Shown: positions 9,746 through 57,781 of the stretch, one piece after another
Layout: each line of letters begins with the position of its first letter
How positions within the stretch are numbered: the first letter of the stretch is position 1
Translations under genes and position numbers: made by a program
Source of the DNA: a virus
Taxonomy: Duplodnaviria > Heunggongvirae > Uroviricota > Caudoviricetes
DNA: 64,000 bases
Direction: 5' to 3' (one strand)
IMG/VR virus record: IMGVR_UViG_2974665086_000001
Location: 54,700-118,699 of that record
The notes under the pieces: generated by a model
The model's input: the letters and a program-made list of their open reading frames with translations, nothing else
Databases searched by the model: none
Told to the model about the DNA's origin: nothing

Positions 9746-11055
9746 ACCACGAGTCACGAGTGCTTAGTGCACTCTTAATTAATCAGGATATGGTGTCAGT
9801 AATGGCAGACAATCTGGGAAACTTGATTGTCACTCATGCCGATATCTGGCAGTTTATCTATAGATATTACCAAAAGAATAAGTCAGTACCTCCCGTATCG
9901 ATCGTTAAGGAAAAGTTCGAGGATTTCGAATTTAATCCTGACCTCGAAGGTGCTACCAAGCACTATGTTGAAACCTTGCGTGAAGCACGAGCTAAGGCCG
10001 ATCTAGAGCGCTTGGCGACGGGTGCCCTAAAGGCAATGGAATCGGGCGAGGCTTCTATGGAGCAGATTCTCTCCCATTTCAGTAAGCGCACAGCAGAGAT
10101 TCAACGTAATACAGGTACATCGCGTTCAGTTGATGTTAGAGATATTGACGACGCATCCGACCACTACGACGAAGTTCGTAAGCGAGCCGCAGAACACGGT
10201 GGTCGTCCTGGCATTATGACCGGGTTTGAATACATGGACGAATACTATCCAACAGGATTCGCACCAGGACACTTTATCGTGTTGCTTGGTTATTCTGGTC
10301 TGGGTAAGACTTGGTTCGGTATCAAGCTTATGATTAATGCTTGGTTGCAGGGCTATGCTCCGATGATTATCAATCTAGAAATGTCACCGGAAGAACTACG
10401 AGACCGTATTATCTTCCTTATTTCAGAGTACAGTATGGATGATCTTGTTAGAGCCGAAATTGATCCAGATGACTTTAAGCGCTGGGGACAAGAGTTTATG
10501 GACGGTAAAGCCGCTTTCCATCTTGTCGGCAACGAAGGCTTTGGTGACTTTACAACTGATATGGTTCAGAGTAAGATCGAGCAGTTCAAGCCTGATATTA
10601 TTCTAGCTGACTACTTGCAGTTGTTTAGTGACCGTGCACGAAGTCAGAATGAGATTACTAGGGCTAAGTCAACAGCACGTGAGTTTAAGCAACTTGCTAT
10701 GGCTACACAGATTCCAGTCGTTGTTATTACTGCCGTCACAGGTAAGGATAAGAAAGACCGCGTTAATGTGCCCGACGTATCTCAGGTGGCATGGTCGTCA
10801 GAGATTGAGTATGCAGCAAACCTAGCGTTCGCAGTGCATACAGATCGTGATGCAAATCAGAAGGCCAAGACTACACATATCGTTGGACGTAAGAATCGAC
10901 ACGGACCTTTGTTCGCGTTTCAGGTTAAAATGGACCTGGACGTAGGAACAATTATCCAGGTTGATCCTACCGAAGAAGACGGTACAAGTTGGAAGCAATC
11001 CGACGACTTTGAATTCCTTAAGGGCGCTAAGCTCGAAAAGGATGCTAATGCATGA
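9742..11055 (+). CDS. dnaB: DnaB-family replicative helicase
   Basis: N-terminal DnaB-like domain; Walker A GYSGLGKTWFG; RecA-fold motifs typical of DnaB. Confidence 0.8.
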   Translation: MNHESRVLSALLINQDMVSVMADNLGNLIVTHADIWQFIYRYYQKNKSVPPVSIVKEKFEDFEFNPDLEGATKHYVETLREARAKADLERLATGALKAMESGEASMEQILSHFSKRTAEIQRNTGTSRSVDVRDIDDASDHYDEVRKRAAEHGGRPGIMTGFEYMDEYYPTGFAPGHFIVLLGYSGLGKTWFGIKLMINAWLQGYAPMIINLEMSPEELRDRIIFLISEYSMDDLVRAEIDPDDFKRWGQEFMDGKAAFHLVGNEGFGDFTTDMVQSKIEQFKPDIILADYLQLFSDRARSQNEITRAKSTAREFKQLAMATQIPVVVITAVTGKDKKDRVNVPDVSQVAWSSEIEYAANLAFAVHTDRDANQKAKTTHIVGRKNRHGPLFAFQVKMDLDVGTIIQVDPTEEDGTSWKQSDDFEFLKGAKLEKDANA

Positions 11056-11329
11056 TAGAATCAGGCTATTCAGCGAAGAAGGCATAATCGCTGATGATAA
11101 ATACTTCTGGCGTCAGAAAGATAATTTTATCGGACTGCTAGAAGAGAAAATGCGCGCTAGCGGTTATGTCCCGCACCTAGACCTCAGTCCCGAATGGTCA
11201 ACAAGCCTTCGGGATGATGAGAGCTACGCCTTTAAGATTAGTTGGGGCGGCGTATTTGTAGGAAAGGAAATATCGTTATCAAAAGATCCAACAGCGTACT
11301 CGGATGGGAAACTGATTCGCATAAGATGA
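10961..11329 (+). CDS. hypothetical protein
   Basis: 122-aa ORF overlapping helicase end and primase start; may be part of primase N-terminus in another frame. Confidence 0.3.
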   Translation: MILPKKTVQVGSNPTTLNSLRALSSKRMLMHDRIRLFSEEGIIADDKYFWRQKDNFIGLLEEKMRASGYVPHLDLSPEWSTSLRDDESYAFKISWGGVFVGKEISLSKDPTAYSDGKLIRIR

Positions 11330-12267
11330 GTCAGGGTCAAGTTGCACGAATGTTAAACGAACTTGGTTTAACAGTGGAATTTGAAGATGATACTCACCTA
11401 ATGATCTTTTGTCCGTTTCACGACAACCGACACTCAGCAGCATGTTCGGTTGCCAAGAATACGGGATACTACTTTTGTCACGGTGCAAGTTGTGGTTCCC
11501 AAGGTCGTTTCGTACAATTAGTAAGACACGTGCGACCTTGGGACGCAATGCGCGCAATGAGATTTATTGAGAAGCATCAATCAGGCCAATTAAGCGTAGA
11601 GAAGATTCTCGAAGATATCTATGCTGACAAGGAAGAAATGCCGGAATTCCCCGAGCATATCTTAAAGGCCATGCAAGAGGCTTACTTGACAAAGCAAGCT
11701 CCACAAGACTATATTAGTGGACGCGGGATCAAACCTGGGACTGCAAGATACTTTGGGCTTGGTTACGATGCCTCACTCAATATGGTTGTAGTTCCCATGT
11801 ATGATACTGACAATAGAAACATTGGCGTTATCGGTAGAACGATTAGCGGTCCAAAGCGTTTCAAGAACTCGAAAAAGCTTCCGAGCAAAAAGAGTTTGTT
11901 TAACATTAACAATGCAAAACGAGCGGGTAGTGAAAGTCTGATACTGGTAGAGTCGAGTTTCGATGCTATTAGAATACATCAGTCAGGCTATCCAAACGTC
12001 TGCGCCACACTCGGTGGTACATTCTCTCCATTCCATTTGTCACAAGTCAATCGTCACTTTAACCGTTTGGTTCTAATGATCGATGTTGACGAACCTGGAA
12101 TGAAGTTTGCAGAAAGCATTGCACATAAAGTAAGAGAATCCGGCACATCGGTTTATCGGGGAAGATACTCAGAATCAGAACTGTTTCCCGAAGGTGCTAA
12201 AGATGCCTGTGATATGTCAGACGAAGATATAGCATGGTGCATTAGAAATGCTAGTATAATGATCTAG
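11242..12267 (+). CDS. DnaG-like DNA primase (zinc-binding domain + TOPRIM)
   Basis: CPFHDNRHSAACSV...YYFCHGASCG zinc-ribbon; TOPRIM-like LVESSFDAI...MIDVDEPG. Confidence 0.7.
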   Translation: MGRRICRKGNIVIKRSNSVLGWETDSHKMSQGQVARMLNELGLTVEFEDDTHLMIFCPFHDNRHSAACSVAKNTGYYFCHGASCGSQGRFVQLVRHVRPWDAMRAMRFIEKHQSGQLSVEKILEDIYADKEEMPEFPEHILKAMQEAYLTKQAPQDYISGRGIKPGTARYFGLGYDASLNMVVVPMYDTDNRNIGVIGRTISGPKRFKNSKKLPSKKSLFNINNAKRAGSESLILVESSFDAIRIHQSGYPNVCATLGGTFSPFHLSQVNRHFNRLVLMIDVDEPGMKFAESIAHKVRESGTSVYRGRYSESELFPEGAKDACDMSDEDIAWCIRNASIMI

Positions 12268-12334
12268 CTTATGATATACTTATATTAAGTCGCTGACAAA
12301 AGCGCGAAATATAATAGGAGAAAAAACAAACAAA

Positions 12335-13072
12335 ATGGCAATTTTTAGTAATTTAGCATCACTTAAGACTAAGCAGGAAGCATTCGATAAGCGTCAGGCT
12401 GATCGAGATTTACCAAAGGCTACATGGTTTACAATTCCAAAGGATGGAAGCGCACTTAAGATTCGTTTCTTGCAGGAATTGGACGATCAAGCTGAGAACT
12501 ATGATAAGAAGGCCGGTACCTTTCTAGGTGCAGTTGAGCACCAGGCACCAGGACCAAAGGGATTTTTGTCTAGAGCACTAGACACAACAGAAACCGATCC
12601 AGAAGGCAGAGACTTTGCAGTAGAAATGCTTGCGAAGACTGGCGATAACGATTGGCGTGCACGTGAAAACTTTTACATCAATGTTGCAGTAGAACGTGAT
12701 GGTAAGGTACAGCCCGAGATTATGTCTCGTAATCTTCACTCTACTTTCGTTAAGACACTTGTTCGTAAGTACGAGCGTAGCGGCGGCAAGGGTATTACAG
12801 GACGCACTTTCGAAATCTTTAAGCAAGGTTCAGGTCCACAGACACAGTGGATTCTAGAAGACTTGAATGAAGATTTGGATATTACAGGTGTTGAGCCTTG
12901 GGACTTGAATACATATGCGATTCGCGAGATTCCATATGACAAGCAAGAGGAATACTACTTGAAGAACTACGAACCTAAGAAGGAAGAGTCTGCCGGTGAA
13001 GGCACTCTAGCCGTTTCAGGTTCAAAGGGTTCTGAGGATAGCGGCTCTGGCTCTACAGAATTTAAGTGGTAA
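12335..13072 (+). CDS. single-stranded DNA-binding protein (T4 gp32-like)
   Basis: N-terminus ...KATWFTIPKDGSALKIRFLQ resembles gp32 N-terminal region; acidic Ser/Gly/Glu C-terminal tail; strong RBS AGGAGAAAAAACAAACAAAATG. Confidence 0.6.
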   Translation: MAIFSNLASLKTKQEAFDKRQADRDLPKATWFTIPKDGSALKIRFLQELDDQAENYDKKAGTFLGAVEHQAPGPKGFLSRALDTTETDPEGRDFAVEMLAKTGDNDWRARENFYINVAVERDGKVQPEIMSRNLHSTFVKTLVRKYERSGGKGITGRTFEIFKQGSGPQTQWILEDLNEDLDITGVEPWDLNTYAIREIPYDKQEEYYLKNYEPKKEESAGEGTLAVSGSKGSEDSGSGSTEFKW

Positions 13073-25989: not shown

Positions 25990-26068
25990 TGAACAAAGGT
26001 ATTCAAATAGTGTTTAATGGCAACACACCCTGGTAATGGGAGTTCTGGGTTCGATTCCCAGTTTGTTT
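25990..26068 (+). tRNA. tRNA-like element (clean T-arm, noncanonical body)
   Basis: CTGGGTTCGATTCCCAG T-arm, acceptor GAACAAA/TTTGTTT; D/anticodon arms do not fold canonically. Confidence 0.3.
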
Positions 26069-26080
26069 ATTCTTTGTTAT

Positions 26081-26153: not shown

Positions 26154-26159
26154 CGTTAT

Positions 26160-26258
26160 GAACCGGAGTTAGTTGTTTATCTGTTGCCAAAGTAGTATCG
26201 GTGAACCAACTATTCACCAGCCCGAGAAATCGGGTTTAACAATTAGCACAACAAGTTC
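26160..26258 (+). ncRNA. Y RNA-like element a (family of 12)
   Basis: 5' GAACCGG-N9-GTTTATC; 3' partner CAAGTTC; position 3 A pairs with T. Confidence 0.55.
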
Positions 26259-26267
26259 ATATCCAAT

Positions 26268-26338: not shown

Positions 26339-26345
26339 CTCGTTG

Positions 26346-26453
26346 AGCCGATTAGATATCGGTTATCATACTGGTTCGAATCCGGTCTTGTCTCTTTCGA
26401 GGGCACGATCAAGCACAATTTGGGTGCTATAATCCGATTCTTACACCATGCTC
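26346..26453 (+). ncRNA. Y RNA-like element b, contains internal T-arm (ACTGGTTCGAATCCGGT)
   Basis: 5' GAGCCGA-TTAGATATC-GGTTATC; 3' CATGCTC (G:C covariation). Confidence 0.6.
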
Positions 26454-26470
26454 AACTATAATTTAATGCT

Positions 26471-26647
26471 GAACCGATTGGTAGTTGGTTACCACGATAA
26501 AGCTGGACGAAAGAGCCAGCATACAAGTGTGGTCAATAAAAGGCTTAACACTTATGGTTTTACCCCGTTAGACGCTTTACCTTTTTGGCATCCGCAGGTA
26601 AAGTGAACGCTAGGATACGCCACTTCCAACAATCAGATAACATGTTC
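26471..26647 (+). ncRNA. Y RNA-like element c (long, ~177 nt)
   Basis: 5' GAACCGA-TTGGTAGTT-GGTTACC; 3' AACATGTTC; -10-like CTATAAT 9 nt upstream. Confidence 0.55.
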
Positions 26648-26739
26648 AGTTAAAGTTTCTAGGCCAGCGAATTTACAAAGGAGTCCCCGAGGGGAAAGTT
26701 TCAGCTTGTGCCTAGAAGGCCAGGGTTCGCCCTGGTTCT

Positions 26740-26811: not shown

Positions 26812-26950
26812 CTCATGGCACCGAAGTTAATTTGGTAAAAACACCGAATGGTAGACGTATCGTTAACTGTAGTAGTGACGACTCGATCAGTTTGGCCGGT
26901 AGGCCCGGAGATTGGTGGTTCGATTCCGCCCGGAGCAATCTAACTTAAGG
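26812..26950 (+). ncRNA. structured RNA region with degenerate Y-like 5' motifs and a terminal T-arm; not a canonical tRNA
   Basis: CACCGAAGTTAATTTGGTAAAAAC and ACACCGAATGGTAGACGTATCGTTAAC resemble the family 5' arm; GGTGGTTCGATTCCGCC T-arm at the 3' end. Confidence 0.3.
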
Positions 26951-27419
26951 AATATATTATGAACTGGATTGACAACTTCAATCAAGACTTGTTAGAGTTT
27001 TTGCGTGAAGATGATGTAATTCCTAAAGGGTATTCGATCCATGAAATTCAGACCAGAGAGAGCACTAAAAAGTGTGGCGAAGGAACCTGCGACCTTACTT
27101 ACTTTCCATTGACCATATGGGTAATAAACACGTGGAAAACAAATTGTAAGATAATCGAGTCGGAGTACGACTTTGCAGAATTTATGCAATGGGTTGCCAA
27201 CAAACAAAGATCGATTAAGGATTCTAAGTGAAATCTCTTATGAGCGCAGCAGTTCTGATAATCGCAGCAATAGGAGTTATTTCTCTTATTTACACGACTG
27301 CAATGTTCGGAATCGAAACAACGTTTAAGTGCGGTGCACTAGAGTCCGTGCCGGTTGCAGAAAAAGAATGCTGGCAGCCTTTTACAGGTAATGTTAAGCT
27401 AGACTAATCAGGAGATATA

Positions 27420-28127: not shown

Positions 28128-28330
28128 TGATTTGGCTAGCTAATGCTATTATGATATTCTGTGTAGCAACTATGGCCGGGATGATAATTTTTGTGATAGC
28201 GACGATTGTCGGGCAAGTTCTCAAATGGGCTTGCACTTTCCTGCTAGACCTAGTAGAGTTCATCTCAGCGCAGATCAGAGACTACCGATCAGCTCGCAGA
28301 CACAAGCGCTTGACAGACAACAAGCACTAA
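28124..28330 (+). CDS. small membrane protein
   Basis: 68 aa, single long hydrophobic segment. Confidence 0.35.
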   Translation: MMIWLANAIMIFCVATMAGMIIFVIATIVGQVLKWACTFLLDLVEFISAQIRDYRSARRHKRLTDNKH

Positions 28331-28384
28331 GATAGACTGAATTACGAAACACAGTGAATGAAATTGTTGCCTAACAAAGGAATT

Positions 28385-28413
28385 TGACAATGCTCTGAAC
28401 ATAGTGTAGAGTA
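28385..28413 (+). promoter_or_regulatory. sigma70-like promoter TTGACA-N17-TAGAGT driving the ncRNA/tRNA array
   Basis: TTGACA at 28385-28390, 17-nt spacer, TAGAGT 28408-28413; predicted start about 3 nt before element f. Confidence 0.45.
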
Positions 28414-28423
28414 GAACAAGTAC

Positions 28424-28502
28424 GAAACGGATAGCACGTCGGTTATCAACCAATTTGAATTAGTTATGGCCTATGGCCTCTCCGACAGCTAATAACATTT
28501 TC
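28424..28502 (+). ncRNA. Y RNA-like element f (variant GAAACGG)
   Basis: 5' GAAACGG-ATAGCACGT-CGGTTATC; 3' CATTTTC - double compensatory change (C4>A with G>T) preserves pairing. Confidence 0.55.
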
Positions 28503-28512
28503 GTACTACCAA

Positions 28513-28585
28513 TGGTCACTAGCTTAACTGGCAAAGCTACACCCTGTTAAGGTGTCCGATGTAGGTTCGAATCCTACGTGATCAG
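28513..28585 (+). tRNA. tRNA-Asn (GUU)
   Basis: Acceptor TGGTCAC/GTGATCA, D-arm GCTT..AAGC, anticodon arm ACACC-CTGTTAA-GGTGT, T-arm GTAGGTTCGAATCCTAC. Confidence 0.75.
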
Positions 28586-28591
28586 CTTTAA

Positions 28592-28720
28592 GAACCGAAT
28601 GTAGAGTCGTTTATCCTTCTGCAAAAAGGCTAGACTGGGTTCGAATCCCGGTGCCCCTGCCAACTTAGGGGTATAGTGTAATGGTAGCACAGTAAAAACG
28701 CGATTCTCGGCAACATGTTC
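28592..28720 (+). ncRNA. Y RNA-like element d with internal permuted tRNA-like module
   Basis: 5' GAACCGA-ATGTAGAGTC-GTTTATC; 3' AACATGTTC; internal CTGGGTTCGAATCCCGG T-arm, TGCCCCT-gccaactt-AGGGGTA closed acceptor-like stem, then TAGTGTAATGGTAGCAC D-arm. Confidence 0.6.
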
Positions 28721-28749
28721 TTATCAACTTCAATCAGAATGGAAGCAAA

Positions 28750-28905
28750 ATGCCAGAAGAAACAGTAACGATTAGCAAGCAGCAGTATGATAGTCTTGTT
28801 GAGGACAGTGAATTTCTCCAAAGATTGCAAGACGGCGGGGTAGACAATTGGCCTGGATACAGCGATTGTTACACGCAAGAAAAATTCGAAGCAGCCTTCG
28901 GATAA
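28750..28905 (+). CDS. small protein (51 aa) embedded in the ncRNA array; not in ORF track
   Basis: ATG 28750 preceded by GGAAGCAAA; MPEETVTISKQQYDSLVEDSEFLQRLQDGGVDNWPGYSDCYTQEKFEAAFG. Confidence 0.3.
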   Translation: MPEETVTISKQQYDSLVEDSEFLQRLQDGGVDNWPGYSDCYTQEKFEAAFG

Positions 28906-28917
28906 CATAAACTTTCT

Positions 28918-29009
28918 GAACCGGCAAGGTATTGGTTATCTAACAATGAATAAAACAAATCGGGGCAACGGTAACACCGGCCCTATATCCGATCCTTAAA
29001 CACATGTTC
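28918..29009 (+). ncRNA. Y RNA-like element e1
   Basis: 5' GAACCGG-CAAGGTATT-GGTTATC; 3' CACATGTTC. Confidence 0.55.
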
Positions 29010-29034
29010 AGAACAACAATTTAAAAAGCTTTTT

Positions 29035-29150
29035 GAGCCGACTGGTAATTGGTTATCTTACAATTAATTTGATAATAAACCCGCGTGAGTTCGATTCTCA
29101 CTTGGTCACATGGCTGAGGGGACCAAATCTCCGATTCCAACAACATGCTC
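29035..29150 (+). ncRNA. Y RNA-like element e2 with internal T-arm plus closed acceptor-like hairpin
   Basis: 5' GAGCCGA-CTGGTAATT-GGTTATC (compare hY4 GGUCCGAUGGUAGUGGGUUAUC); GTGAGTTCGATTCTCAC then TTGGTC..GACCAA hairpin; 3' AACATGCTC. Confidence 0.6.
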
Positions 29151-29172
29151 AAAATTTAACTTAATATCTTAA

Positions 29173-29237
29173 GAGCCGGATGACAACGGTTAACCAACAC
29201 TCATATTGTTCCTACACCCGTTGTCAGTTACATGCTC
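29173..29237 (+). ncRNA. Y RNA-like element e3 (short, 65 nt)
   Basis: 5' GAGCCGG; 8-bp upper stem GACAACGG/CCGTTGTC; 3' CATGCTC; TAATAT -10-like 6 nt upstream. Confidence 0.6.
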
Positions 29238-29255
29238 TCAAGATCAAAGACTTAT

Positions 29256-29347
29256 GAACCGGAGAACTTCGTTTATCTTGTCAATTCGAGACGGTAGGGT
29301 TCGATTCCCTCCGTATGGGCTGGTGCCTATCGAAGTTCATAACACGT
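29256..29347 (+). ncRNA. Y RNA-like element e4 with internal T-arm
   Basis: 5' GAACCGG; 8-bp upper stem GAACTTCG/CGAAGTTC; AGGGTTCGATTCCCT; 3' CACGTTC. Confidence 0.6.
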
Positions 29348-29354
29348 TCATACT

Positions 29355-29425
29355 ATGTGGCACACCGTAGGCTGTGGGAGCGTGACTGTAAATCACTACT
29401 CTGAGAGTTCGAATCTCTCGTGCCA
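29355..29425 (+). tRNA. tRNA, anticodon GUA (Tyr?) with short variable arm - identity uncertain
   Basis: Acceptor GTGGCAC/GTGCCAC perfect, anticodon arm CGTGA-CTGTAAA-TCACT, T-arm GAGAGTTCGAATCTCTC; D-arm irregular. Confidence 0.45.
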
Positions 29426-29431
29426 CACCAA

Positions 29432-29490
29432 GCGAGCCGGATTGTGACGTTTATCTTATGGCATAAACACGTTACAAGCGAACATGCTTG
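29432..29490 (+). ncRNA. Y RNA-like element e5 (short)
   Basis: 5' GAGCCGG-ATTGTGAC-GTTTATC directly after the tRNA 3' end; 3' AACATGCTT. Confidence 0.5.
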
Positions 29491-29497
29491 CTATAAT
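29488..29497 (+). promoter_or_regulatory. extended -10 (TGcTATAAT) placing a start at the 5' G of element e6
   Basis: ttgctataat at 29488-29497; GAACCGC begins 29503. Confidence 0.45.
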
Positions 29498-29502
29498 TTT
29501 AC

Positions 29503-29633
29503 GAACCGCAGTAAATCGTTAATCAAAATCAGCTCAGATGTGGGTTCGAGTCCCACCCGTTAGGTTAAAAAACTTATCGGTAGCCCAACTGGCAGAGGCA
29601 GCCGACCCTTCTACGATTTATGACAACATGTTC
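29503..29633 (+). ncRNA. Y RNA-like element e6 with internal T-arm
   Basis: 5' GAACCGC-AGTAAATC-GTTAATC; upper stem CAGTAAATCG/CGATTTA; GTGGGTTCGAGTCCCAC; 3' AACATGTTC. Confidence 0.6.
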
Positions 29634-29647
29634 GTAATCAATACCCT

Positions 29648-29718
29648 AGTACCAGGCTAACAAACATAGGCGGCGGTCATAGTTTTCAGGTTCGAATCCT
29701 GATAGGGTAGCTTTTCTG
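29648..29718 (+). tRNA. tRNA-like element (acceptor and T-arm present, no foldable anticodon arm)
   Basis: TACCCTA/TAGGGTA acceptor and TCAGGTTCGAATCCTGA T-arm; body does not give canonical D/anticodon arms. Confidence 0.35.
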
Positions 29719-29842
29719 AGCCGACTATGTATCGGTTATCGCATTCGGAGCCGGAAGAGAAGGTTCGATTCCTTCACCCCCGACCATAGGGGGTTAGTGT
29801 ACTGGATAGCACTCTGTAAATCCCGATCATGCCAACATGCTC
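29718..29842 (+). ncRNA. Y RNA-like element g, directly upstream of rsr, with permuted tRNA-like module (paralog of d)
   Basis: 5' GAGCCGA-CTATGTATC-GGTTATC; GAAGGTTCGATTCCTTC T-arm, ACCCCC-gaccat-AGGGGGT closed stem, TAGTGTACTGGATAGCAC D-arm; 3' AACATGCTC. Confidence 0.65.
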
Positions 29843-29899
29843 AGAAACCAAACATATTCAACCAAAAGGGTTGAACCGAGAAGATAAAGAGGATGAAGA

Positions 29900-31504
29900 A
29901 TGTCAGCACTAGGTAATGTTAAGTTGAAGGAACCAAAGTCTACTCCGCAGACTGAAAAGGCGGTAAAGGGTCAGAAGCGTAACAACGCTGGTGGCTTTAG
30001 CTTTAAGATCGATGACAAGGATCGTTTTCGACGTTTCCTGACAATCGGTTCTGATGGTGGAACTTACTACGTGGGTGAGCAGAAGCTTACGGAAGAGCAC
30101 GTTAAGTTTGTTCAGAAGATCATCAAGCGTGATGGTTTGACAGCAGTCGAAGAGATTGTTAATGTCAGCTCTAACGCACTGGCACCGAAGAATACACAGG
30201 CTTTGTTCGCATTGGCTGTAGCATTCACTTCGGAAGACCTTAAGGTAAAGGCCGCTGCCAAGGCAGCATTGCCCAAGGTTGCTCGTACTTCTACTCATCT
30301 TTTTGAGTTCGCACAGTTCATCGAGAATATCGCTGGCTGGGGACGCGCTAAGACTAGTGCGGTTGCGAGCTGGTACGAAGACAAGACTCCTGATAGCCTT
30401 GCTTACCAGGCAGTTAAGTACCGTCAGCGTAATGGTTGGACTCACCGAGACCTGTTCCGTTTGTCTCATCCTCAGAAGGTTGACAGCGGACTTGCAGAGT
30501 GGATTCTGCGCGGGAACAACGAAAACGTTCCTGAAATTATCTCCATTTTCGAAGAGTTGCAGGCAGCTACCACAGAGGCCAAGGCACTTAAGATTATGAA
30601 GCGTAATGCAGATGCAAACATTGCATGGGAATTCTTGCCAACTGAGCTTCACAACTCGGCAAAGATTTGGTCTGAACTGTTCTACCGTGGAATGGGTCAC
30701 ACAGCTCTGCTACGTAACACAAGTCGTATGCACAAGCTTGGTCTGTTTAACGATATGAAGTTCGCAGCAGATTACGCAGCAGCTCTCGCAGACGAAAACC
30801 TTATTCGTAAGGGTCGTATGCATCCGATTCAGTACCTTAATGCTTACGCAGCATACAACGGTGATCCTGACGGACAGGCAAGTTACTGGGGTGGCGATTG
30901 CCATAAGGGTGTTGACGGTGCTAATAACAAGATCGTCGCAGCACTGGAAGCGGGATACAATTCTGCTTTCCAGAACGTTGAGCCTGCCAACAAGCGTACT
31001 TTGATGGGACTGGACGTGTCCGGTTCAATGTCTCAGGCCGCTTCTGGGCTTAAGCTCAGTTGTGCAACTTTGGGCGCAGCATTCAGTCAGACTTTGGTTA
31101 AGCGTGAACCTTACGCGGTTATCAAGGGCTTCACGAATGAGTTTAAGGACTTGGGAATCAGTGATTCCGATAACCTTAAGACTGTAATGTCCAAGGTGAC
31201 AAGGCAGAACTTCGGTCGTACCGATTGTTCACTGCCTATGGTTTGGGCACTGGAAAAGAAGGTAGAAGTTGATACCTTCGTGGTGTTCACGGACAACGAG
31301 ACATACGCGGGACGCCAGCACCCTCACCAGGCGCTAGAGCGTTACCGTCAGCAGATGGGCATTCCTGCACGCTTGGTTGTGGTTGCGGCTACAGCAACGC
31401 GTTTCTCGATTGCCGATCCTACGGACGCTGGTAGCCTGGACGTGTCGGGGTTCGATGCGAGCACGCTAAAGACTATCGCAGACTTTAGTGCAGGTCGTAT
31501 CTAG
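29900..31504 (+). CDS. rsr: Ro60/Rsr ortholog (TROVE domain + vWA domain)
   Basis: RFRRFLTIGSDGGTYYVGEQKL and ALFALAVA align with human Ro60 [22 protein letters not shown] / MLFALAIC; C-terminal MIDAS motif MGLDVSGSMS; 534 aa. Confidence 0.9.
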   Translation: MSALGNVKLKEPKSTPQTEKAVKGQKRNNAGGFSFKIDDKDRFRRFLTIGSDGGTYYVGEQKLTEEHVKFVQKIIKRDGLTAVEEIVNVSSNALAPKNTQALFALAVAFTSEDLKVKAAAKAALPKVARTSTHLFEFAQFIENIAGWGRAKTSAVASWYEDKTPDSLAYQAVKYRQRNGWTHRDLFRLSHPQKVDSGLAEWILRGNNENVPEIISIFEELQAATTEAKALKIMKRNADANIAWEFLPTELHNSAKIWSELFYRGMGHTALLRNTSRMHKLGLFNDMKFAADYAAALADENLIRKGRMHPIQYLNAYAAYNGDPDGQASYWGGDCHKGVDGANNKIVAALEAGYNSAFQNVEPANKRTLMGLDVSGSMSQAASGLKLSCATLGAAFSQTLVKREPYAVIKGFTNEFKDLGISDSDNLKTVMSKVTRQNFGRTDCSLPMVWALEKKVEVDTFVVFTDNETYAGRQHPHQALERYRQQMGIPARLVVVAATATRFSIADPTDAGSLDVSGFDASTLKTIADFSAGRI

Positions 31505-31508
31505 TTAG

Positions 31509-31543
31509 TTGTCGGGGAGTAGTGATAAATTACTCCCCGACTT
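31509..31543 (+). terminator. stem-loop terminator after rsr
   Basis: GTCGGGGAGTA...TACTCCCCGAC 11-bp hairpin. Confidence 0.6.
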
Positions 31544-31576
31544 CTCTTCCCTAACCCATCTATCAGAAAGTAAAAT

Positions 31577-32431
31577 ATGTTTTTGTTTATCACCGCGATT
31601 ATTTTGTTTATCGCAGCGGGTATTGCTTATCCTTTGTTCAAGAATGATAGTATTCTTCCCGCAGTTGGACTTGCGCTGGTTGGCTTGATTGCGCTAGTGT
31701 TTGCTTCAACTACAATCGTGTCAACAAAGAACGTCGGTGTGGTAACTACGTTTGGTCGTCCTACGGATAGCTTGTCGAATGGCTTGCATGTCAAGGCACC
31801 TTGGTCTAAGGTTACAGAGCTTGACGGCGCGGTTCAGATTAATCACGAAACTTCGGACGTTCGTCTCGGCAATAACAGCATGGCCGGGGTAGAGAATTCG
31901 ATTCAGTGGCGTATTACTCCTGACAAGGCCGATCAGCTTTTCTTGGATTACCGAAGCTTTGACTCCATTAAGGATAACCTGGTTTCTCGTCAGATCACTG
32001 CAAGTTTGAATGAAGTCTTTGCTAGCTACAACCCACTTGAAGCTGTAGCAATTGCTAAGCCGGGTGAAGCAGCAGTACCGGCCCAGCCGGGTATTGATCT
32101 GAATAAGCTTTCTAAGCTTGTTGAGGAAGACTTGCGTGAGCGAGTTAATGGTAAGGTTGAAATCATCAGCGTTATCATTCCCTTGGTTCGTTTCGATGAC
32201 CAGACACAGCAAAAGCTTGACGCTTTCCAGCAGGAAATCGGTAACACTCGTATCGCACAGCAGAAGGAACTTACTGCTGGTGCAGAAGCAGAAGCTAACA
32301 AGGCTTTGTCGGCATCTGTTAATAACGATCCGAACGTTCTCGTTTCGAAGTGCTTGGATATCGTCAAGTCAAACAACCACTCTCCGCTCGGTTGCTGGCC
32401 GGGTACCAATACAGTTATCCCAGCCAAGTGA
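31577..32431 (+). CDS. SPFH/band-7 (prohibitin/HflK-like) membrane protein
   Basis: N-terminal TM helix then SPFH-like core (VGVVTTFGRPTD...LHVKAPW...) and coiled-coil C-terminus. Confidence 0.6.
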   Translation: MFLFITAIILFIAAGIAYPLFKNDSILPAVGLALVGLIALVFASTTIVSTKNVGVVTTFGRPTDSLSNGLHVKAPWSKVTELDGAVQINHETSDVRLGNNSMAGVENSIQWRITPDKADQLFLDYRSFDSIKDNLVSRQITASLNEVFASYNPLEAVAIAKPGEAAVPAQPGIDLNKLSKLVEEDLRERVNGKVEIISVIIPLVRFDDQTQQKLDAFQQEIGNTRIAQQKELTAGAEAEANKALSASVNNDPNVLVSKCLDIVKSNNHSPLGCWPGTNTVIPAK

Positions 32432-32697
32432 GTCTCACAGCGATCTGTTTTCTACTCGCTCTAGTTCTAGGTGGACTGGCAGTAGGATCGTTTATCTTCG
32501 GGACCGTTAAAGATAATGTGTTCTTTATTATCTCTGGCGCAGTTCTCGTGGGAATGGTAGTTGCAGCATCCATTGCGGGTGCGGTAAGCTACAACGACAA
32601 TATTCGAGAATCACAGAACAGTTGCCTTGCTAACAGTGGGGTTATCTATTCAAACAAATGTGTTGATCGAGTGCCGCTAGAAATTCAAAAGCTCTAG
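32350..32697 (+). CDS. small membrane protein (true start probably downstream of 32431)
   Basis: Two hydrophobic helices; N-terminal part overlaps previous gene. Confidence 0.3.
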   Translation: MLGYRQVKQPLSARLLAGYQYSYPSQVSLTAICFLLALVLGGLAVGSFIFGTVKDNVFFIISGAVLVGMVVAASIAGAVSYNDNIRESQNSCLANSGVIYSNKCVDRVPLEIQKL

Positions 32698-34087: not shown

Positions 34088-34549
34088 ATGTATAACAAGC
34101 TTGCAGACGTAATCGCTTTAGCTGAGTTTGCACACCGCAATCAGGTTGACAAGGCCGGTATGCCGTATATCGAGCATCCACGTCGTGTAATGCAATCCGT
34201 GCAGAACCAAGGTGCTTTGCCCTATATTCAAATGGCAGCTATACTGCATGACGTAATCGAAGATACACCTTTCACAGCAGAAATGTTGATTGAACTTGGT
34301 GTACCGGCACCAGCAGTAGAAATTGTCGTATTGCTCACCAGAACTAAGACAGTCGCCCCACGAGATTACTATCTTGCAATTCGTGAGAATCCGGCGGCAA
34401 GGATGGTGAAGCTTGCAGATATCGATGACAATACTCAGGGTTGGCGTTTAAGTTATCTCCCATTGGAGACGCAACAGCGACTTGATAAAAAGTATTACAA
34501 CGCCAAGCTTGTTCTTAACTATGCCGATAATCTAGGATTGGAAAAATGA
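34088..34549 (+). CDS. SpoT/RelA-type HD-domain (p)ppGpp hydrolase (small alarmone hydrolase)
   Basis: HRNQVDKAGMPYIEHPRRV...AAILHDVIEDT matches the HD hydrolase motif of SpoT/Mesh1. Confidence 0.7.
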   Translation: MYNKLADVIALAEFAHRNQVDKAGMPYIEHPRRVMQSVQNQGALPYIQMAAILHDVIEDTPFTAEMLIELGVPAPAVEIVVLLTRTKTVAPRDYYLAIRENPAARMVKLADIDDNTQGWRLSYLPLETQQRLDKKYYNAKLVLNYADNLGLEK

Positions 34550-50038: not shown

Positions 50039-50539
50039 ATGTTGTTACTGAGAACCATCAGCGGCAGCAGGTTGTATGGTCTAAGCCATGCGAAATCGGA
50101 TTATGATTACTGGGAAGTTTATTCAAATAAGCTTCCCAGTCCTGCAAAATACATAAAGCAGACAATTTCGGGGGATTTAGACTTAACACAGTCTAACTTG
50201 TCTACCTTTATGAGAAACGCAAATAAGTGTACTCCCCAAGCGTTAGAGTGCATGTTCTCAGAACAAGCAGAAGTTGATGAGATATCAGAGCTACGCCGCA
50301 ACTATCGCCTAGACACTGCCAAGTTTTATCACGTGTATTTGAGTCTAATTCATATGAACTCTGACACAAGTAAAAAGAATGCAGCAAGGCATAGTCTGCG
50401 GCTAGCTTTGAATCTAAAGCAAGGCATGAAATATGCTAGATTCTGCCCAACTCTGACCGACAAACAAATCGAACGTATAGTTAATAGTTCTGAGCAAGAG
50501 CTATTCGAATGGCGAGACAAGGTAATTAACAACCTATGA
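50039..50539 (+). CDS. minimal nucleotidyltransferase (Pol-beta superfamily)
   Basis: GSRLYG...SDYDY = [GS]x9-13DxD NTase signature near N-terminus, 166 aa. Confidence 0.55.
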   Translation: MLLLRTISGSRLYGLSHAKSDYDYWEVYSNKLPSPAKYIKQTISGDLDLTQSNLSTFMRNANKCTPQALECMFSEQAEVDEISELRRNYRLDTAKFYHVYLSLIHMNSDTSKKNAARHSLRLALNLKQGMKYARFCPTLTDKQIERIVNSSEQELFEWRDKVINNL

Positions 50540-56804: not shown

Positions 56805-57113
56805 ATGTTTCTATACGAAGAAAAGACCTCGACAACTCATACTATTAAAGAGGACGAAGACGGCGACGTAACCGAGACTCGTTTGGAAACATGGGCAGAA
56901 ATCTGGGCACATATCAAGCCAGGTCAGACACCTGATATCAAGGCAGACCTTACCAGTTGGCTTCAGATTGGCACTCGTTGGGGTAACTATGTTACTTTCA
57001 GTCTCTCGCTAGATGAAATGAAGAAACTGTCCGAAACGTTCGCTCAGTTTTATGCCACGATGGTCGAAGAAAACTTTAAGCTCGAACAGGAAAGAAAGAA
57101 GCACGAAAAATGA
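56805..57113 (+). CDS. hypothetical acidic protein
   Basis: 102-aa ORF. Confidence 0.35.
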   Translation: MFLYEEKTSTTHTIKEDEDGDVTETRLETWAEIWAHIKPGQTPDIKADLTSWLQIGTRWGNYVTFSLSLDEMKKLSETFAQFYATMVEENFKLEQERKKHEK

Positions 57114-57781
57114 AATGGTTTTACAAGAATAAAGAAATCACCAGCCAGGCAGCAAAGTACATGGAAGATACTGGGCAGGCTAAGGTAAATGAGGCGCATT
57201 CGGGTGCAACTCCCGAGCATCTGGGCGGTGGTGATTCAGCGTGGGGTGTAATGGTTCCCGGTCCCGGTAACGTTTGGATTGAAAATCAACTGAACTCTAA
57301 GGTTCGTCTGTTCGATCCGACACTGGGAGATATTCAGCTCTACGACGGACATAAGCCTGGTCGTCTGAGCGCAGTTATTGTTGATCTGGACGGAACAGTT
57401 GCAGATCACAGTCAGAGACAGTGGAATGATTACTCAGATGTAATCAATGATAAGCCGATCCACAATGTAGTTAGTGCCGTTCGTAATGAAGACGAAATGG
57501 GCCATGAAGTAATCTTTATGTCCGGTCGTGAAGATGTATGTTACATTGACACGAAGCTGTGGATCGCACGAACGTTTGGCTGGCCTGCTGATTCTGTTAA
57601 CCTGTTCATGCGTGTAGCAAAGGACTACCGACCTGACTTTATTGTTAAGGAAGAACTGTTCCAGAAGCACGTACACGGCAAGTACAACGTACTGCGCTGC
57701 TACGACGATAGGGACCAGGTTGTAGCCCTGTGGCGTTACAAGGGTCTGACTTGCTTCCAGACGGCCTACGGAGCGTTCTAG
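57110..57781 (+). CDS. HAD-family phosphatase (polynucleotide 3'-phosphatase/nucleotidase-like)
   Basis: VIVDLDGTVADHS (DxDGT) and FMSGRED motifs. Confidence 0.6.
   Translation: MKWFYKNKEITSQAAKYMEDTGQAKVNEAHSGATPEHLGGGDSAWGVMVPGPGNVWIENQLNSKVRLFDPTLGDIQLYDGHKPGRLSAVIVDLDGTVADHSQRQWNDYSDVINDKPIHNVVSAVRNEDEMGHEVIFMSGREDVCYIDTKLWIARTFGWPADSVNLFMRVAKDYRPDFIVKEELFQKHVHGKYNVLRCYDDRDQVVALWRYKGLTCFQTAYGAF

What the first reader, a model, noticed from the sequence alone, without database searches (positions are those of the whole stretch)
29900..32697. Phage-encoded Ro60/Rsr with an SPFH membrane protein downstream
The 534-aa protein aligns with human Ro60 across the TROVE core (FLTIGSDGGTYYVGEQKL) and has a C-terminal vWA MIDAS motif. 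It is followed by a terminator, then an SPFH/band-7 membrane protein and a small membrane protein. In bacteria, Rsr works with Y RNA and PNPase in structured-RNA decay and stress survival. Here it may act on the phage's own large tRNA and small-RNA pool, or on host rRNA/tRNA during infection.
Basis: partly seen in the sequence, partly recalled or inferred. Interest (0 to 1): 0.7.

Follow-up and report, generated by a model that had tools for sequence, protein, structure and literature searches.

The report
Phage Ro60 gene with twelve Y RNAs
The gene is a genuine, already annotated phage copy of the RNA-binding protein Ro60. The neighbouring membrane-protein gene looks like an unrelated neighbour, and the new point is that the 3.7 kb upstream holds twelve unannotated genes for Ro60's small partner RNAs (Y RNAs), interleaved with tRNA genes.

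Summary
The window is Rhodococcus phage Trina (MF668286). ORF 29900-31504 is a full-length Ro60/Rsr protein: TROVE 1e-38, Ro60-type vWA 2e-59 with an intact MIDAS motif, and E 2e-98 to D. radiodurans Rsr. A strong hairpin follows it, then an SPFH/Band-7 gene and a small membrane protein.

None of this is new. GenBank already calls the gene 'Ro-like RNA binding protein', 358 phage records carry a homologue, and Chen et al. 2014 reported Y RNAs next to Ro60 in 22 phages.

The Ro-SPFH pairing appears coincidental. The sister phage NiceHouse and phages Peregrin and Grayson keep the SPFH gene without Ro. In Sixama and the cluster C mycobacteriophages checked, the two genes lie far apart.

Each has a terminal stem, an RCCG motif, a second stem and GUUAUC. 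Compensatory changes support both stems. Three units carry a complete tRNA-like domain and a fourth (N2) an incomplete one.

A covariance model trained on phage units finds all twelve. It also finds known YrlA sites upstream of bacterial rsr. It finds nothing in the Ro-less sister phage. Bacterial loci hold 1-4 units and other phage loci up to 7, so Trina has the most seen.

The parts
29900..31504 (+). rsr: Ro60/Rsr orthologue (Trina gp137), 534 aa
   Evidence: Pfam TROVE and vWA_Ro60. PDB 2nvo E 2e-98 and 1yvp E 3e-88. PHROG 850. Annotated 'Ro-like RNA binding protein' in MF668286.
29978..30556 (+). Best-matching part of the TROVE domain (residues 27-219). It includes K173, R177 and H190, which align to Xenopus K170, R174 and H187.
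   Evidence: H187S abolishes Y RNA binding according to PMC11277228.
30995..31486 (+). Ro60-type vWA domain (residues 366-529). The MIDAS motif is DVSGS at 31013-31027, plus T441 and D465.
   Evidence: PF25045 at 1.7e-59. The residues are invariant in alignment A5.
31511..31541 (+). Intrinsic-terminator-like hairpin (13 bp, 7 G-C pairs) with a T-rich tail
31577..32431 (+). SPFH/Band-7 membrane protein (gp138). It is a neighbour and is not linked to Ro in other phages.
   Evidence: PF01145 at 4.7e-19. PHROG 200. Distribution across phages.
32428..32697 (+). Small protein with two hydrophobic segments (gp139, 89 aa); no family match
26157..26261 (+). Y RNA-like unit N1 (hairpin type), lying between two tRNA-Gly genes
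   Evidence: R1 33.5 bits, not in its training set. R2 46.7 bits. Fold.
26342..26456 (+). Y RNA-like unit N2, with a T arm (26370-26386) and a D-like hairpin. It starts right after tRNA-Gly.
   Evidence: R1 35.9 bits. R2 51.1 bits. Anatomy.
26468..26650 (+). Y RNA-like unit N4, with a long insert of about 150 nt
   Evidence: Descriptor scan. R2 28.9 bits, E 2e-4, not in its training set.
28384..28412 (+). Promoter-like TTGACA-17-TAGAGT. Its -10 hexamer ends 7 nt before N3. A second site lies at 28310-28338.
   Evidence: The motif occurs 15 times on the + strand against 0.96 expected.
28419..28507 (+). Y RNA-like unit N3 (hairpin type). It ends 5 nt before tRNA-Asn.
   Evidence: R1 30.4 bits. 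R2 54.4 bits.
28513..28586 (+). tRNA-Asn(GTT), flanked by N3 and U1
28589..28723 (+). Y RNA-like unit U1 (full YrlA type). It has a T arm at 28635-28651, a closed 7-bp acceptor-like stem whose loop reads G-CCA-ACUU, and a D arm at 28674-28690.
   Evidence: The Rfam YrlA model aligns T arm, acceptor stem and D arm. R2 34.1 bits, not in its training set. Anatomy.
28750..28905 (+). gp134, a T7 gp5.9-like RecBCD inhibitor embedded in the array. It is probably not part of the Ro module.
   Evidence: PF25708 at 3.4e-18. phrog_6234.
28914..29013 (+). Y RNA-like unit U2 (hairpin type)
29031..29154 (+). Y RNA-like unit U3, with a T arm (29085-29101) and a closed stem
29168..29246 (+). Y RNA-like unit U4 (hairpin type)
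29253..29352 (+). Y RNA-like unit U5, with a T-arm-like hairpin. It ends 4 nt before tRNA-Tyr.
29357..29430 (+). tRNA-Tyr(GTA), 74 nt, with an encoded CCA. U7 starts at the next base.
   Evidence: Rfam tRNA 29.1 bits. GenBank annotation.
29431..29492 (+). Y RNA-like unit U7 (minimal hairpin, 62 nt)
29499..29637 (+). Y RNA-like unit U8 (full YrlA type), with a T arm at 29540-29556, a closed stem and a D arm
   Evidence: Rfam YrlA 23.7 bits over the full model. R2 36.2 bits, not in its training set. Alignment.
29646..29713 (+). tRNA-like element with a 7-bp acceptor stem and a T arm but no clear anticodon arm. It may act as a processing signal.
   Evidence: Sequence and fold.
29713..29847 (+). 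Y RNA-like unit U10 (full YrlA type). It has a T arm at 29759-29775, an acceptor-like stem whose loop reads A-CCA-U, and a D arm.
   Evidence: R2 46.4 bits, not in its training set. Anatomy.

Best explanation
Trina carries a complete Ro60-Y RNA module.

Shown:
- rsr encodes a full-length Ro60 orthologue. The residue tied to Y RNA binding (H190, aligned to Xenopus H187), two further conserved RNA-contact residues (K173, R177) and the MIDAS residues are all retained.
- The 3.7 kb upstream, on the same strand, holds twelve paralogous Y RNA-like genes.
- These genes share the stem module of the bacterial YrlA/YrlB family, which is the part expected to bind Ro.
- Three of the twelve (U1, U8, U10) carry a complete tRNA-like effector domain: T arm, closed acceptor stem and D arm. 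N2 has a T arm and a D-like hairpin but a poorly paired acceptor stem.

Inferred:
- The Y genes are transcribed together with tRNAs from SigA-type promoters. The last transcription unit would run from the promoter at 28384 through N3...U10 and rsr to the hairpin at 31511.
- The Y RNAs are released by tRNA-processing enzymes, because several unit ends abut tRNA ends.
- Ro60 binds the conserved stem. The variable modules gate its cavity or tether it to partners such as host PNPase, as in D. radiodurans and Salmonella. This would specialise RNA surveillance or decay during infection.
- The module probably works alongside the phage's tRNA set and its RNA-repair genes: polynucleotide kinase, RNA ligase and nucleotidyltransferase.

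The SPFH gene and the small membrane protein are adjacent but are not part of this module.
For: Protein identity rests.

Y units:
- All twelve share a terminal stem ending GARC/GYUC, the motif RCCGNN opposite NNAACAU, a second stem, and G(K)UUAUC.
- Cognate 5' and 3' halves pair far better than swapped halves. Stem 2 averages -10.4 against -4.7 kcal/mol, and about 1 in 40,000 permutations reaches the cognate value.
- Pair counts give 91% of cells paired, 12 of 13 pairs changed on both sides, and 0 of 500 shuffles as high. Slid controls reach 30-46%.
- Model R1, built from eight units, found three new units.
- Model R2 finds all twelve, including four absent from its training set. It finds nothing else in the whole 139-kb genome and nothing on the minus strand.

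Link to the known family:
- R2, trained only on phage units, gives 160 hits in 80 bacterial rsr loci, nearly all directly upstream of rsr and most on its strand.
- In the seven bacterial loci checked with Rfam, the YrlA model hit nine sites at significant E-values, each overlapping an R2 hit. One is in G. polyisoprenivorans, a species in which Chen et al. 2014 reported a YrlA.
- A consensus fold of 31 full-length units recovers stem 1, stem 2, the T arm, the closed acceptor stem and the D arm. Of 29 pairs, 25 show compensatory changes.

Co-occurrence with Ro:
- R2 gives 0 hits at E<=10 in 50 kb of the syntenic tRNA region of Ro-less NiceHouse and in 12.7 kb of Peregrin.
- In 80 IMG/VR Ro loci, all 188 hits lie on the Ro strand.

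Promoter motif: 15 sites on the + strand against 0.96 expected, several of them ahead of tRNA clusters.

Precedent: Chen et al. 2014 (PMC4201824) report Y RNAs next to Ro60 in 254 bacteria and 22 phages, the Rsr-Y RNA-PNPase complex, and RNase P cleavage of M. smegmatis YrlA.

RNA-repair genes in Trina are listed.
Against: - There are no expression or binding data. No tool here can show that Trina Ro binds these RNAs or that host PNPase is recruited.
- The Rfam YrlA gathering score (69 bits) is not reached. The best Trina hit scores 23.7 bits. Actinobacterial YrlAs also fall below it, at 41-52 bits.
- The motif deviates from the published GNCGAAN0-1G in most units (RCCGNN).
- Alignment A3 was built from segments I chose, and A4 was fitted to the model, so the pair counts lean towards the structure.
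- Co-transcription and tRNA-dependent processing are inferred from spacing and consensus motifs only.
- Why twelve paralogues are needed is not explained.
- Whether the host R. erythropolis has its own Rsr was not established.
Confidence: 0.62

Rival explanations
1. Ro60, the SPFH protein and the small membrane protein form one functional module, for example a membrane-anchored RNA surveillance complex.
For: The three genes are adjacent and on the same strand. Both families occur in many of the same large actinobacteriophage groups: 358 phage records for Ro and 371 for SPFH.
Against: A strong terminator-like hairpin separates rsr from the SPFH gene. The SPFH gene is retained at 75-82% identity in NiceHouse, Peregrin and Grayson, which lack Ro. 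In NiceHouse it sits at the equivalent place in a syntenic tRNA region. In Sixama and cluster C mycobacteriophages the two genes are about 10 to 120 kb apart. The gene downstream of Ro in Francob and TunaTartare is unrelated.
Confidence: 0.05
2. The twelve units are not Ro partners. They are decayed or permuted tRNA genes, transcript-processing spacers, or a repeat family that spread within the tRNA region.
For: They lie among tRNA genes, and about half contain T-arm-like hairpins. GenBank annotators called part of the region a pseudo-tRNA.
Against: Six units have no tRNA-like part, yet all twelve keep the stem module. The stems are kept by compensatory changes, which means selection on RNA structure. 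The same module marks authentic YrlA sites upstream of bacterial rsr. The units are absent from 50 kb of the syntenic, tRNA-rich region of Ro-less NiceHouse.
Confidence: 0.06
3. The Y-like RNAs mainly act on their own as tRNA mimics. They could decoy or titrate host tRNA-targeting defence nucleases, tRNA-modifying enzymes or a host Rsr, with phage Ro serving only to stabilise them.
For: Three units carry a complete tRNA-like domain without an anticodon loop, and a fourth carries a partial one. U1 and U10 place a genomic CCA at the tRNA 3'-end position. The phage carries 33 tRNAs and RNA-repair genes. The Salmonella rsr-yrlBA-rtcBA operon responds to tRNA damage (abstract of PMC7790460).
Against: Six of the twelve units have no tRNA-like element, and only three or four have a near-complete tRNA-like domain. 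The strict co-occurrence with Ro points to a ribonucleoprotein function. There is no direct evidence for a decoy activity.
Confidence: 0.15

Closest known systems
Ro60 orthologues and YrlA-like RNAs of mycobacteriophages such as ET08 (Chen et al. 2014, RNA 20:1715; PMC4201824)
   Same: Both are phage-encoded Ro60 with Y RNA-like genes nearby on the same strand, sharing the stem module and the tRNA-like domain. The cluster C phage Alice has three such units just upstream of its Ro gene.
   Different: Protein identity is only about 41%. Trina has twelve units against three. Its units are interleaved with tRNA genes and spread over 3.7 kb. Two of them have a genomic CCA in the acceptor loop. The host genus differs: Trina is the only Rhodococcus phage in the collection with Ro.
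M. smegmatis rsr with YrlA and YrlB (Chen et al. 2014)
   Same: The Y RNAs lie upstream of rsr. One type is tRNA-like with a 7-bp acceptor stem, and this one is cleaved by RNase P and receives CCA in vivo. The other type is a hairpin. Trina has both types.
   Different: This is a cellular locus, and the paper reports at least two Y RNAs there. In the 80 bacterial loci scanned here, R2 found 1-4 units per locus. CCA is added after cleavage rather than encoded.
D. radiodurans Rsr-Yrn1-PNPase and the Salmonella rsr-yrlBA-rtcBA operon
   Same: The protein family is the same (E 2e-98 to 2nvo). In these systems a Y RNA tethers Rsr to PNPase for decay of structured RNA, and the locus is associated with RNA repair genes.
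   Different: According to Chen et al. 2014, Yrn1 belongs to a separate Y RNA lineage. Trina has no RtcR or RtcB next to rsr. A PNPase partnership in Rhodococcus is untested.
Metazoan Ro60 with Y RNAs (four in humans)
   Same: Both combine a ring-shaped TROVE plus vWA protein with several Y RNA paralogues that share a conserved 5'/3' stem and differ in their loops. The metazoan motif GGUCCGA resembles Trina's GARCCGA/G. From my own memory of the sequences, hY1 and hY4 also carry GUUAUC after the stem.
   Different: Metazoan Y RNAs have no tRNA-like domain and are made by RNA polymerase III. The Rfam metazoan Y_RNA model gave no hit here.

Membership tests
Ro60/Rsr (TROVE + vWA RNA-binding protein) | N-terminal TROVE (HEAT-repeat ring) domain | tested here: met
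   PF05731 at E 1.3e-38. Colinear alignment to 2nvo and 1yvp over residues 11-533.
Ro60/Rsr (TROVE + vWA RNA-binding protein) | C-terminal Ro60-type vWA domain with a MIDAS motif, DxSxS...T...D | tested here: met
   PF25045 at E 1.7e-59. D372, S374, S376, T441 and D465 are invariant in alignment A5. The motif definition comes from PMC11277228.
Ro60/Rsr (TROVE + vWA RNA-binding protein) | Conserved RNA-contact residues equivalent to Xenopus K170, R174 and H187 | tested here: met
   K173, R177 and H190 align to them and are invariant in nine phage Ro proteins. H187S loses Y RNA binding.
Ro60/Rsr (TROVE + vWA RNA-binding protein) | NCBIfam equivalog cut-off for Rsr (NF041674, 900 bits) | tested here: not met
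   The score is 434.6 bits, E 4.6e-130. It is a clear family member but falls below the strict equivalog threshold.
Ro60/Rsr (TROVE + vWA RNA-binding protein) | Ring-shaped fold, and binding of Y RNA and misfolded RNA | not tested
   No structure was predicted, because the sequence match to solved structures was judged sufficient. Binding needs experiments.
Bacterial Y RNAs (YrlA/YrlB; Rfam RF02553) | Encoded close to rsr and on the same strand | tested here: met
   All twelve units are on the + strand, 53 to 3743 nt upstream of rsr. None occurs elsewhere in the genome.
Bacterial Y RNAs (YrlA/YrlB; Rfam RF02553) | Stem formed by the 5' and 3' ends, carrying the Ro-binding motif GNCGAAN0-1G on the 5' strand | tested here: inconclusive
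   The stem is present and supported by covariation. The motif is RCCG followed by variable bases, for example ACCGAAUG, GCCGACUG and GCCGGAUG. Few units match the published consensus exactly. Relatives such as Sixama do match it (GCCGAAG).
Bacterial Y RNAs (YrlA/YrlB; Rfam RF02553) | At least one Y RNA per genome has a tRNA-like domain in the order T arm, closed acceptor stem, D arm | tested here: met
   U1, U8 and U10 have it, and N2 has it in part.
Bacterial Y RNAs (YrlA/YrlB; Rfam RF02553) | Rfam gathering score of 69 bits | tested here: not met
   The best Trina hit scores 23.7 bits. Nine actinobacterial sites directly upstream of rsr, including one in G. polyisoprenivorans, a species with a published YrlA, score only 41-52 bits, so the threshold excludes this whole branch.
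Bacterial Y RNAs (YrlA/YrlB; Rfam RF02553) | Bound and stabilised by Rsr in vivo | not testable with these tools
   This needs immunoprecipitation and Northern blotting.
SPFH/Band-7 membrane proteins | SPFH domain with an N-terminal membrane anchor | tested here: met
   PF01145 at 4.7e-19, residues 47-236. Hydrophobic N-terminal segments are visible in the translation. PHROG 200.
SPFH/Band-7 membrane proteins | Conserved gene linkage with Ro60, as the finding implies | tested here: not met

The most novel reading that the evidence does not exclude
Ro-encoding actinobacteriophages have expanded the Y RNA family far beyond cellular genomes: 12 in Trina and up to 7 in other phage loci, against 1-4 in bacteria. 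They express these RNAs from within tRNA operons as a set of interchangeable adaptors. Each variable module would direct the single phage Ro60 to a different partner or RNA target. Alternatively, the modules could serve as anticodon-less tRNA mimics against host tRNA-targeting defences. Units U1 and U10, with a genomic CCA at the acceptor position, could be cut by RNase P into two-piece tRNA-like RNAs with a real CCA end.
Probability: 0.15. Interest if true: 0.7.

Novelty: new member of a known kind. Interest (0 to 1): 0.4.

Why it matters
The flagged gene is ordinary. Ro-like RNA-binding proteins are annotated in hundreds of actinobacteriophages, and their Y RNA partners were described in 2014.

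What adds value is the unannotated RNA content of the locus. Trina has twelve structured Y RNA-like genes, the largest set seen in 168 Ro loci that were fetched without regard to Y RNA content and scanned here, plus the hand-picked phage loci. In GenBank the Trina array carries no Y RNA annotation and part of it is labelled a pseudo-tRNA. In phage Alice, related units overlap tiny annotated ORFs.

The Ro-less sister phage lacks the units entirely. Phage loci also carry more units than bacterial ones. Together these make phages such as Trina a compact system for asking why Ro60 needs several Y RNAs, and what the tRNA-like module does. That question remains open for both bacterial and human Ro60.

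The covariance model built here also finds actinobacterial and phage Y RNAs that the Rfam threshold misses.

Tried and rejected
- Rfam at gathering thresholds found only tRNAs in the window and in eight phage Ro loci. YrlA appears only below threshold.
- My first strict regular-expression descriptor caught 4 of the 8 units known at the time, because stem 2 often has a bulge. A looser one caught 11 of 12, with one probable false hit at 55610.
- Running model R1 with filters off lost all units with long inserts, so default filters were used.
- The first swap test had a bug for U7, an early ACACG match. It was redone.
- A weak 'permuted tmRNA' hit over U1 (12.9 bits) was rejected as a T-arm/acceptor match.
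- The single-protein scan of bacterial genomes found no close relative. The alignment-based scan worked.
- Francob gp105 and TunaTartare gp103, which lie downstream of Ro, were tested as possible SPFH homologues. They have no Pfam hit, and BLASTP of the Francob protein gives E 1.3.
- The Sim et al. 2020 review could not be read, and the supplement tables of Chen et al. 2014 are not held. I therefore could not check how many Y RNAs per phage were reported before.
- No structure prediction was run. The sequence match to solved Ro60 structures made it unnecessary.


Full report
**Source and observation**

The window is 100% identical to Rhodococcus phage Trina, MF668286 / NC_042040, 139,262 bp. 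Adding 54,699 to a window coordinate gives the record coordinate. Trina is a virulent cluster CE siphophage with 33 annotated tRNAs (PMC13313380).

- ORF 29900-31504 encodes 534 aa with a TROVE domain (E 1.3e-38) and a Ro60-type vWA domain (E 1.7e-59).
- It aligns over its whole length with solved D. radiodurans Rsr (2nvo, E 2e-98) and Xenopus Ro60 (1yvp, E 3e-88).
- The MIDAS residues D372, S374, S376, T441 and D465 are intact. So are K173, R177 and H190, which align with Xenopus K170, R174 and H187. All are invariant in nine phage Ro proteins. H187S abolishes Y RNA binding in mouse Ro60 (PMC11277228).
- A 13-bp hairpin with a T-rich tail follows at 31511-31541.
- Next come an SPFH/Band-7 protein (31577-32431, E 4.7e-19) and an 89-aa protein with two hydrophobic segments (32428-32697).

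**How new is the flagged feature?**

It is not new.
- GenBank already names gp137 'Ro-like RNA binding protein' and gp138 'band-7-like membrane protein'.
- A tblastn search finds Ro homologues in 358 phage records: 212 Mycobacterium, 117 Streptomyces, 11 Gordonia, 10 Microbacterium and a few others. Nearly all of the records listed are annotated as Ro-like or RNA-binding protein. The closest are Streptomyces phages at about 51% identity.
- The protein falls in PHROG 850.
- Chen et al. 2014 state that mycobacteriophages were already known to encode Ro60. They reported YrlA-like RNAs near Ro60 in 254 bacteria and 22 phages.

**The SPFH neighbour**

The SPFH protein has homologues in 371 phage records.
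- The closest are Rhodococcus phages Peregrin and Grayson (82%) and NiceHouse (75%). None of these has Ro, because one search found Ro in no Rhodococcus phage other than Trina.
- NiceHouse belongs to the same genus, and its tRNA region is syntenic with Trina's. There the SPFH gene sits between tRNA-Lys and tRNA-Arg(CCT), as in Trina, but with no rsr upstream.
- In Sixama the two genes are about 10 kb apart. In cluster C mycobacteriophages they are about 120 kb apart.
- The proteins downstream of Ro in Francob and TunaTartare have no Pfam match, and the Francob protein is unrelated to SPFH by BLASTP.

Together with the hairpin between the genes, this makes the adjacency a matter of local gene order, not a functional module.

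The 1.3 kb between tRNA-Asn and rsr contains only one 51-aa ORF. Reading the sequence shows a repeated module:
- a terminal stem ending GARC, paired with GYUC;
- the bases CCGNN opposite NNAACAU;
- a second stem;
- then G(K)UUAUC.

Eight such units lie at 28589-29847. Four more lie further upstream among tRNAs and small ORFs: N1, N2, N4 and N3.

Several lines of evidence show that these are structured RNAs.
- Single-sequence folds give the expected stems.
- In a swap test, cognate 5' and 3' halves form stem 2 at a mean of -10.4 kcal/mol, against -4.7 for non-cognate pairs. About 1 in 40,000 permutations reaches the cognate total. The same holds for the outer part of stem 1.
- On a trimmed alignment, 91% of cells pair, 7 of 13 pairs change on both sides, and 0 of 500 shuffles score as high. 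Slid controls give 29-47%.
- On a 14-sequence alignment that includes relatives, 12 of 13 pairs change on both sides.

One caveat applies. I chose the segments for the first alignment, and the second was fitted to the model.

**Independent checks with covariance models**

- Model R1 was built from the eight array units. It found N1, N2 and N3, which it had never seen, at E 8e-6 to 2e-4.
- Model R2 was built from 14 R1 hits. It recovers all twelve units, including U1, U8, U10 and N4, which were not in its training set.
- R2 reports nothing else in the window at E<=1 and nothing on the minus strand. It finds nothing in the rest of the Trina genome.

**Link to the known family**

- R2 contains only phage sequences. 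Even so, it gives 160 hits in 80 bacterial rsr loci, nearly all in the few hundred bases upstream of rsr and most on its strand.
- In the seven bacterial loci checked with Rfam, the YrlA model hit nine sites at E 1e-5 to 6e-9, each overlapping an R2 hit. One is in Gordonia polyisoprenivorans, a species for which Chen et al. report a YrlA. All of these score below Rfam's 69-bit threshold. This explains why gathering-mode searches saw nothing in the phages.
- A consensus fold of 31 full-length units (4 from Trina, the rest from other phages and bacteria) recovers stem 1, stem 2, a T arm, a closed acceptor-like stem and a D arm. Of 29 pairs, 25 show compensatory changes. This is the published YrlA architecture.
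- In Trina, U1, U8 and U10 have the full tRNA-like domain. N2 has a T arm and a D-like hairpin. U3 and U5 have a T arm only. The other six are hairpin types, like YrlB.

**Co-occurrence with Ro and copy number**

- R2 finds no unit, even at E<=10, in 50 kb of the syntenic, tRNA-rich region of Ro-less NiceHouse, or in 12.7 kb of Peregrin.
- In 80 IMG/VR Ro loci, all 188 hits are on the Ro strand.
- By my tally of the hit tables, bacterial loci hold 1-4 units. Phage loci commonly hold 4-7; examples are Sixama with 7, Francob with 5-6 and L129 with 7. Trina has 12, the most seen.
- In Sixama and Francob the units are also interleaved with tRNA genes.

**Expression model (inferred)**

- The motif TTGACA-N17-TAnnnT occurs 15 times, all on the + strand, against 0.96 expected. 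Several sites sit just ahead of tRNA clusters. One ends 7 nt before N3.
- Unit ends abut tRNA ends. N1 and N2 flank a tRNA-Gly. N3 and U1 flank tRNA-Asn. U5 and U7 flank tRNA-Tyr.
- This suggests polycistronic transcripts cut by RNase P and by tRNA 3'-end processing enzymes. The last unit would run into rsr and end at the 31511 hairpin.
- U1 and U10 place N-CCA directly after the 7-nt 3' strand of the acceptor-like stem. This recalls M. smegmatis YrlA, which is cleaved by RNase P and receives CCA in vivo. Two such matches among four units would be unlikely by chance, but this is suggestive only.

**Function (inferred)**

By analogy with D. radiodurans and Salmonella, the Y RNAs would bind the outer face of the Ro ring through the conserved stem. 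Their variable modules would gate the ring or tether it to partners such as PNPase.

Trina also encodes polynucleotide kinase, RNA ligase, a nucleotidyltransferase, a tRNA methyltransferase and phosphoesterases. A role in RNA surveillance or repair during infection is therefore plausible. This could be connected with host attacks on tRNA. None of it is shown.

**Verdict**

The protein identification is right but already known. The SPFH link is not supported. The worthwhile result is the unannotated twelve-member Y RNA-like family, together with the general pattern of expanded, tRNA-interleaved Y RNA sets in Ro-encoding actinobacteriophages.

Noticed in passing
window 28750-28905: A 51-aa ORF (gp134) embedded between Y units U1 and U2 is a T7 gp5.9-like RecBCD inhibitor (PF25708 at 3.4e-18; phrog_6234 at 6e-21). 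The GenBank record (MF668286) calls it hypothetical; the RefSeq copy names it a host RecBCD nuclease inhibitor.
   Followed up: partly
window, + strand: 3820, 25514, 25773, 28310, 28384, 30137, 32702, 33581, 38247, 40408, 41797, 41903, 43530, 44287, 62162: The promoter-like motif TTGACA-N17-TAnnnT occurs 15 times, all on the + strand, against 0.96 expected. Several copies lie just upstream of tRNA clusters. They are probably host SigA-type promoters driving the tRNA and Y RNA operons.
   Followed up: partly
window 29578-29786: The GenBank 'tRNA-OTHER' pseudogene (209 nt) is an artefact. It joins the D arm of Y unit U8, a tRNA-like element and the T arm of Y unit U10.
   Followed up: yes
window 29646-29713: A tRNA-like element has a perfect 7-bp acceptor stem (TACCCTA/TAGGGTA) and a T arm but no recognisable anticodon arm. 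It sits between U8 and U10 and may be a processing signal.
   Followed up: partly
window 29357-29430: tRNA-Tyr(GTA) is only 74 nt long, has no long variable arm and has an odd D arm. It scores 29.1 bits with Rfam and is not called by ARAGORN. NiceHouse and Peregrin carry 84-nt tRNA-Tyr genes. An 89%-identical copy exists in Rhodococcus phage Dorin.
   Followed up: partly
window 29856-29876: An 8-bp hairpin (ATTCAACC AAAAG GGTTGAAC) lies between the last Y unit and the rsr ribosome-binding site. It could be a processing or regulatory element.
   Followed up: no
L005 (Mycobacterium phage Alice) 3568-3916: Three Y RNA-like units just upstream of Ro overlap the annotated tiny ORFs gp218 and gp219, which are therefore probably not genes.
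   Followed up: partly
L008 (Gordonia phage Sixama) 5980-7150: A tmRNA gene (88 bits) lies directly downstream of Ro. It is followed by Y RNA-like units alternating with tRNA genes, for seven units in all.
   Followed up: partly
window 26004-26069 and 26813-26958: There are further orphan tRNA-like pieces: an annotated 'tRNA-OTHER' with D-arm and T-arm motifs, and a gap with a T-arm-like hairpin GGTGGTTCGATTCCGCC. Model R2 does not recognise either as a Y unit.
   Followed up: no
window 30001-32000: The rsr/SPFH segment has higher G+C (0.487 against about 0.44) and the only negative AT skew in the window. This is compatible with acquisition from a source with higher G+C.
   Followed up: no
window 34088-34549, 50039-50539, 56809-57480; Trina record 10544-11089 and 12073-12648: The phage carries an RNA-repair and tRNA toolkit: HD phosphohydrolases, a nucleotidyltransferase, polynucleotide kinase, RNA ligase and a tRNA methyltransferase. 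These could act together with the Ro-Y RNA module.
   Followed up: no
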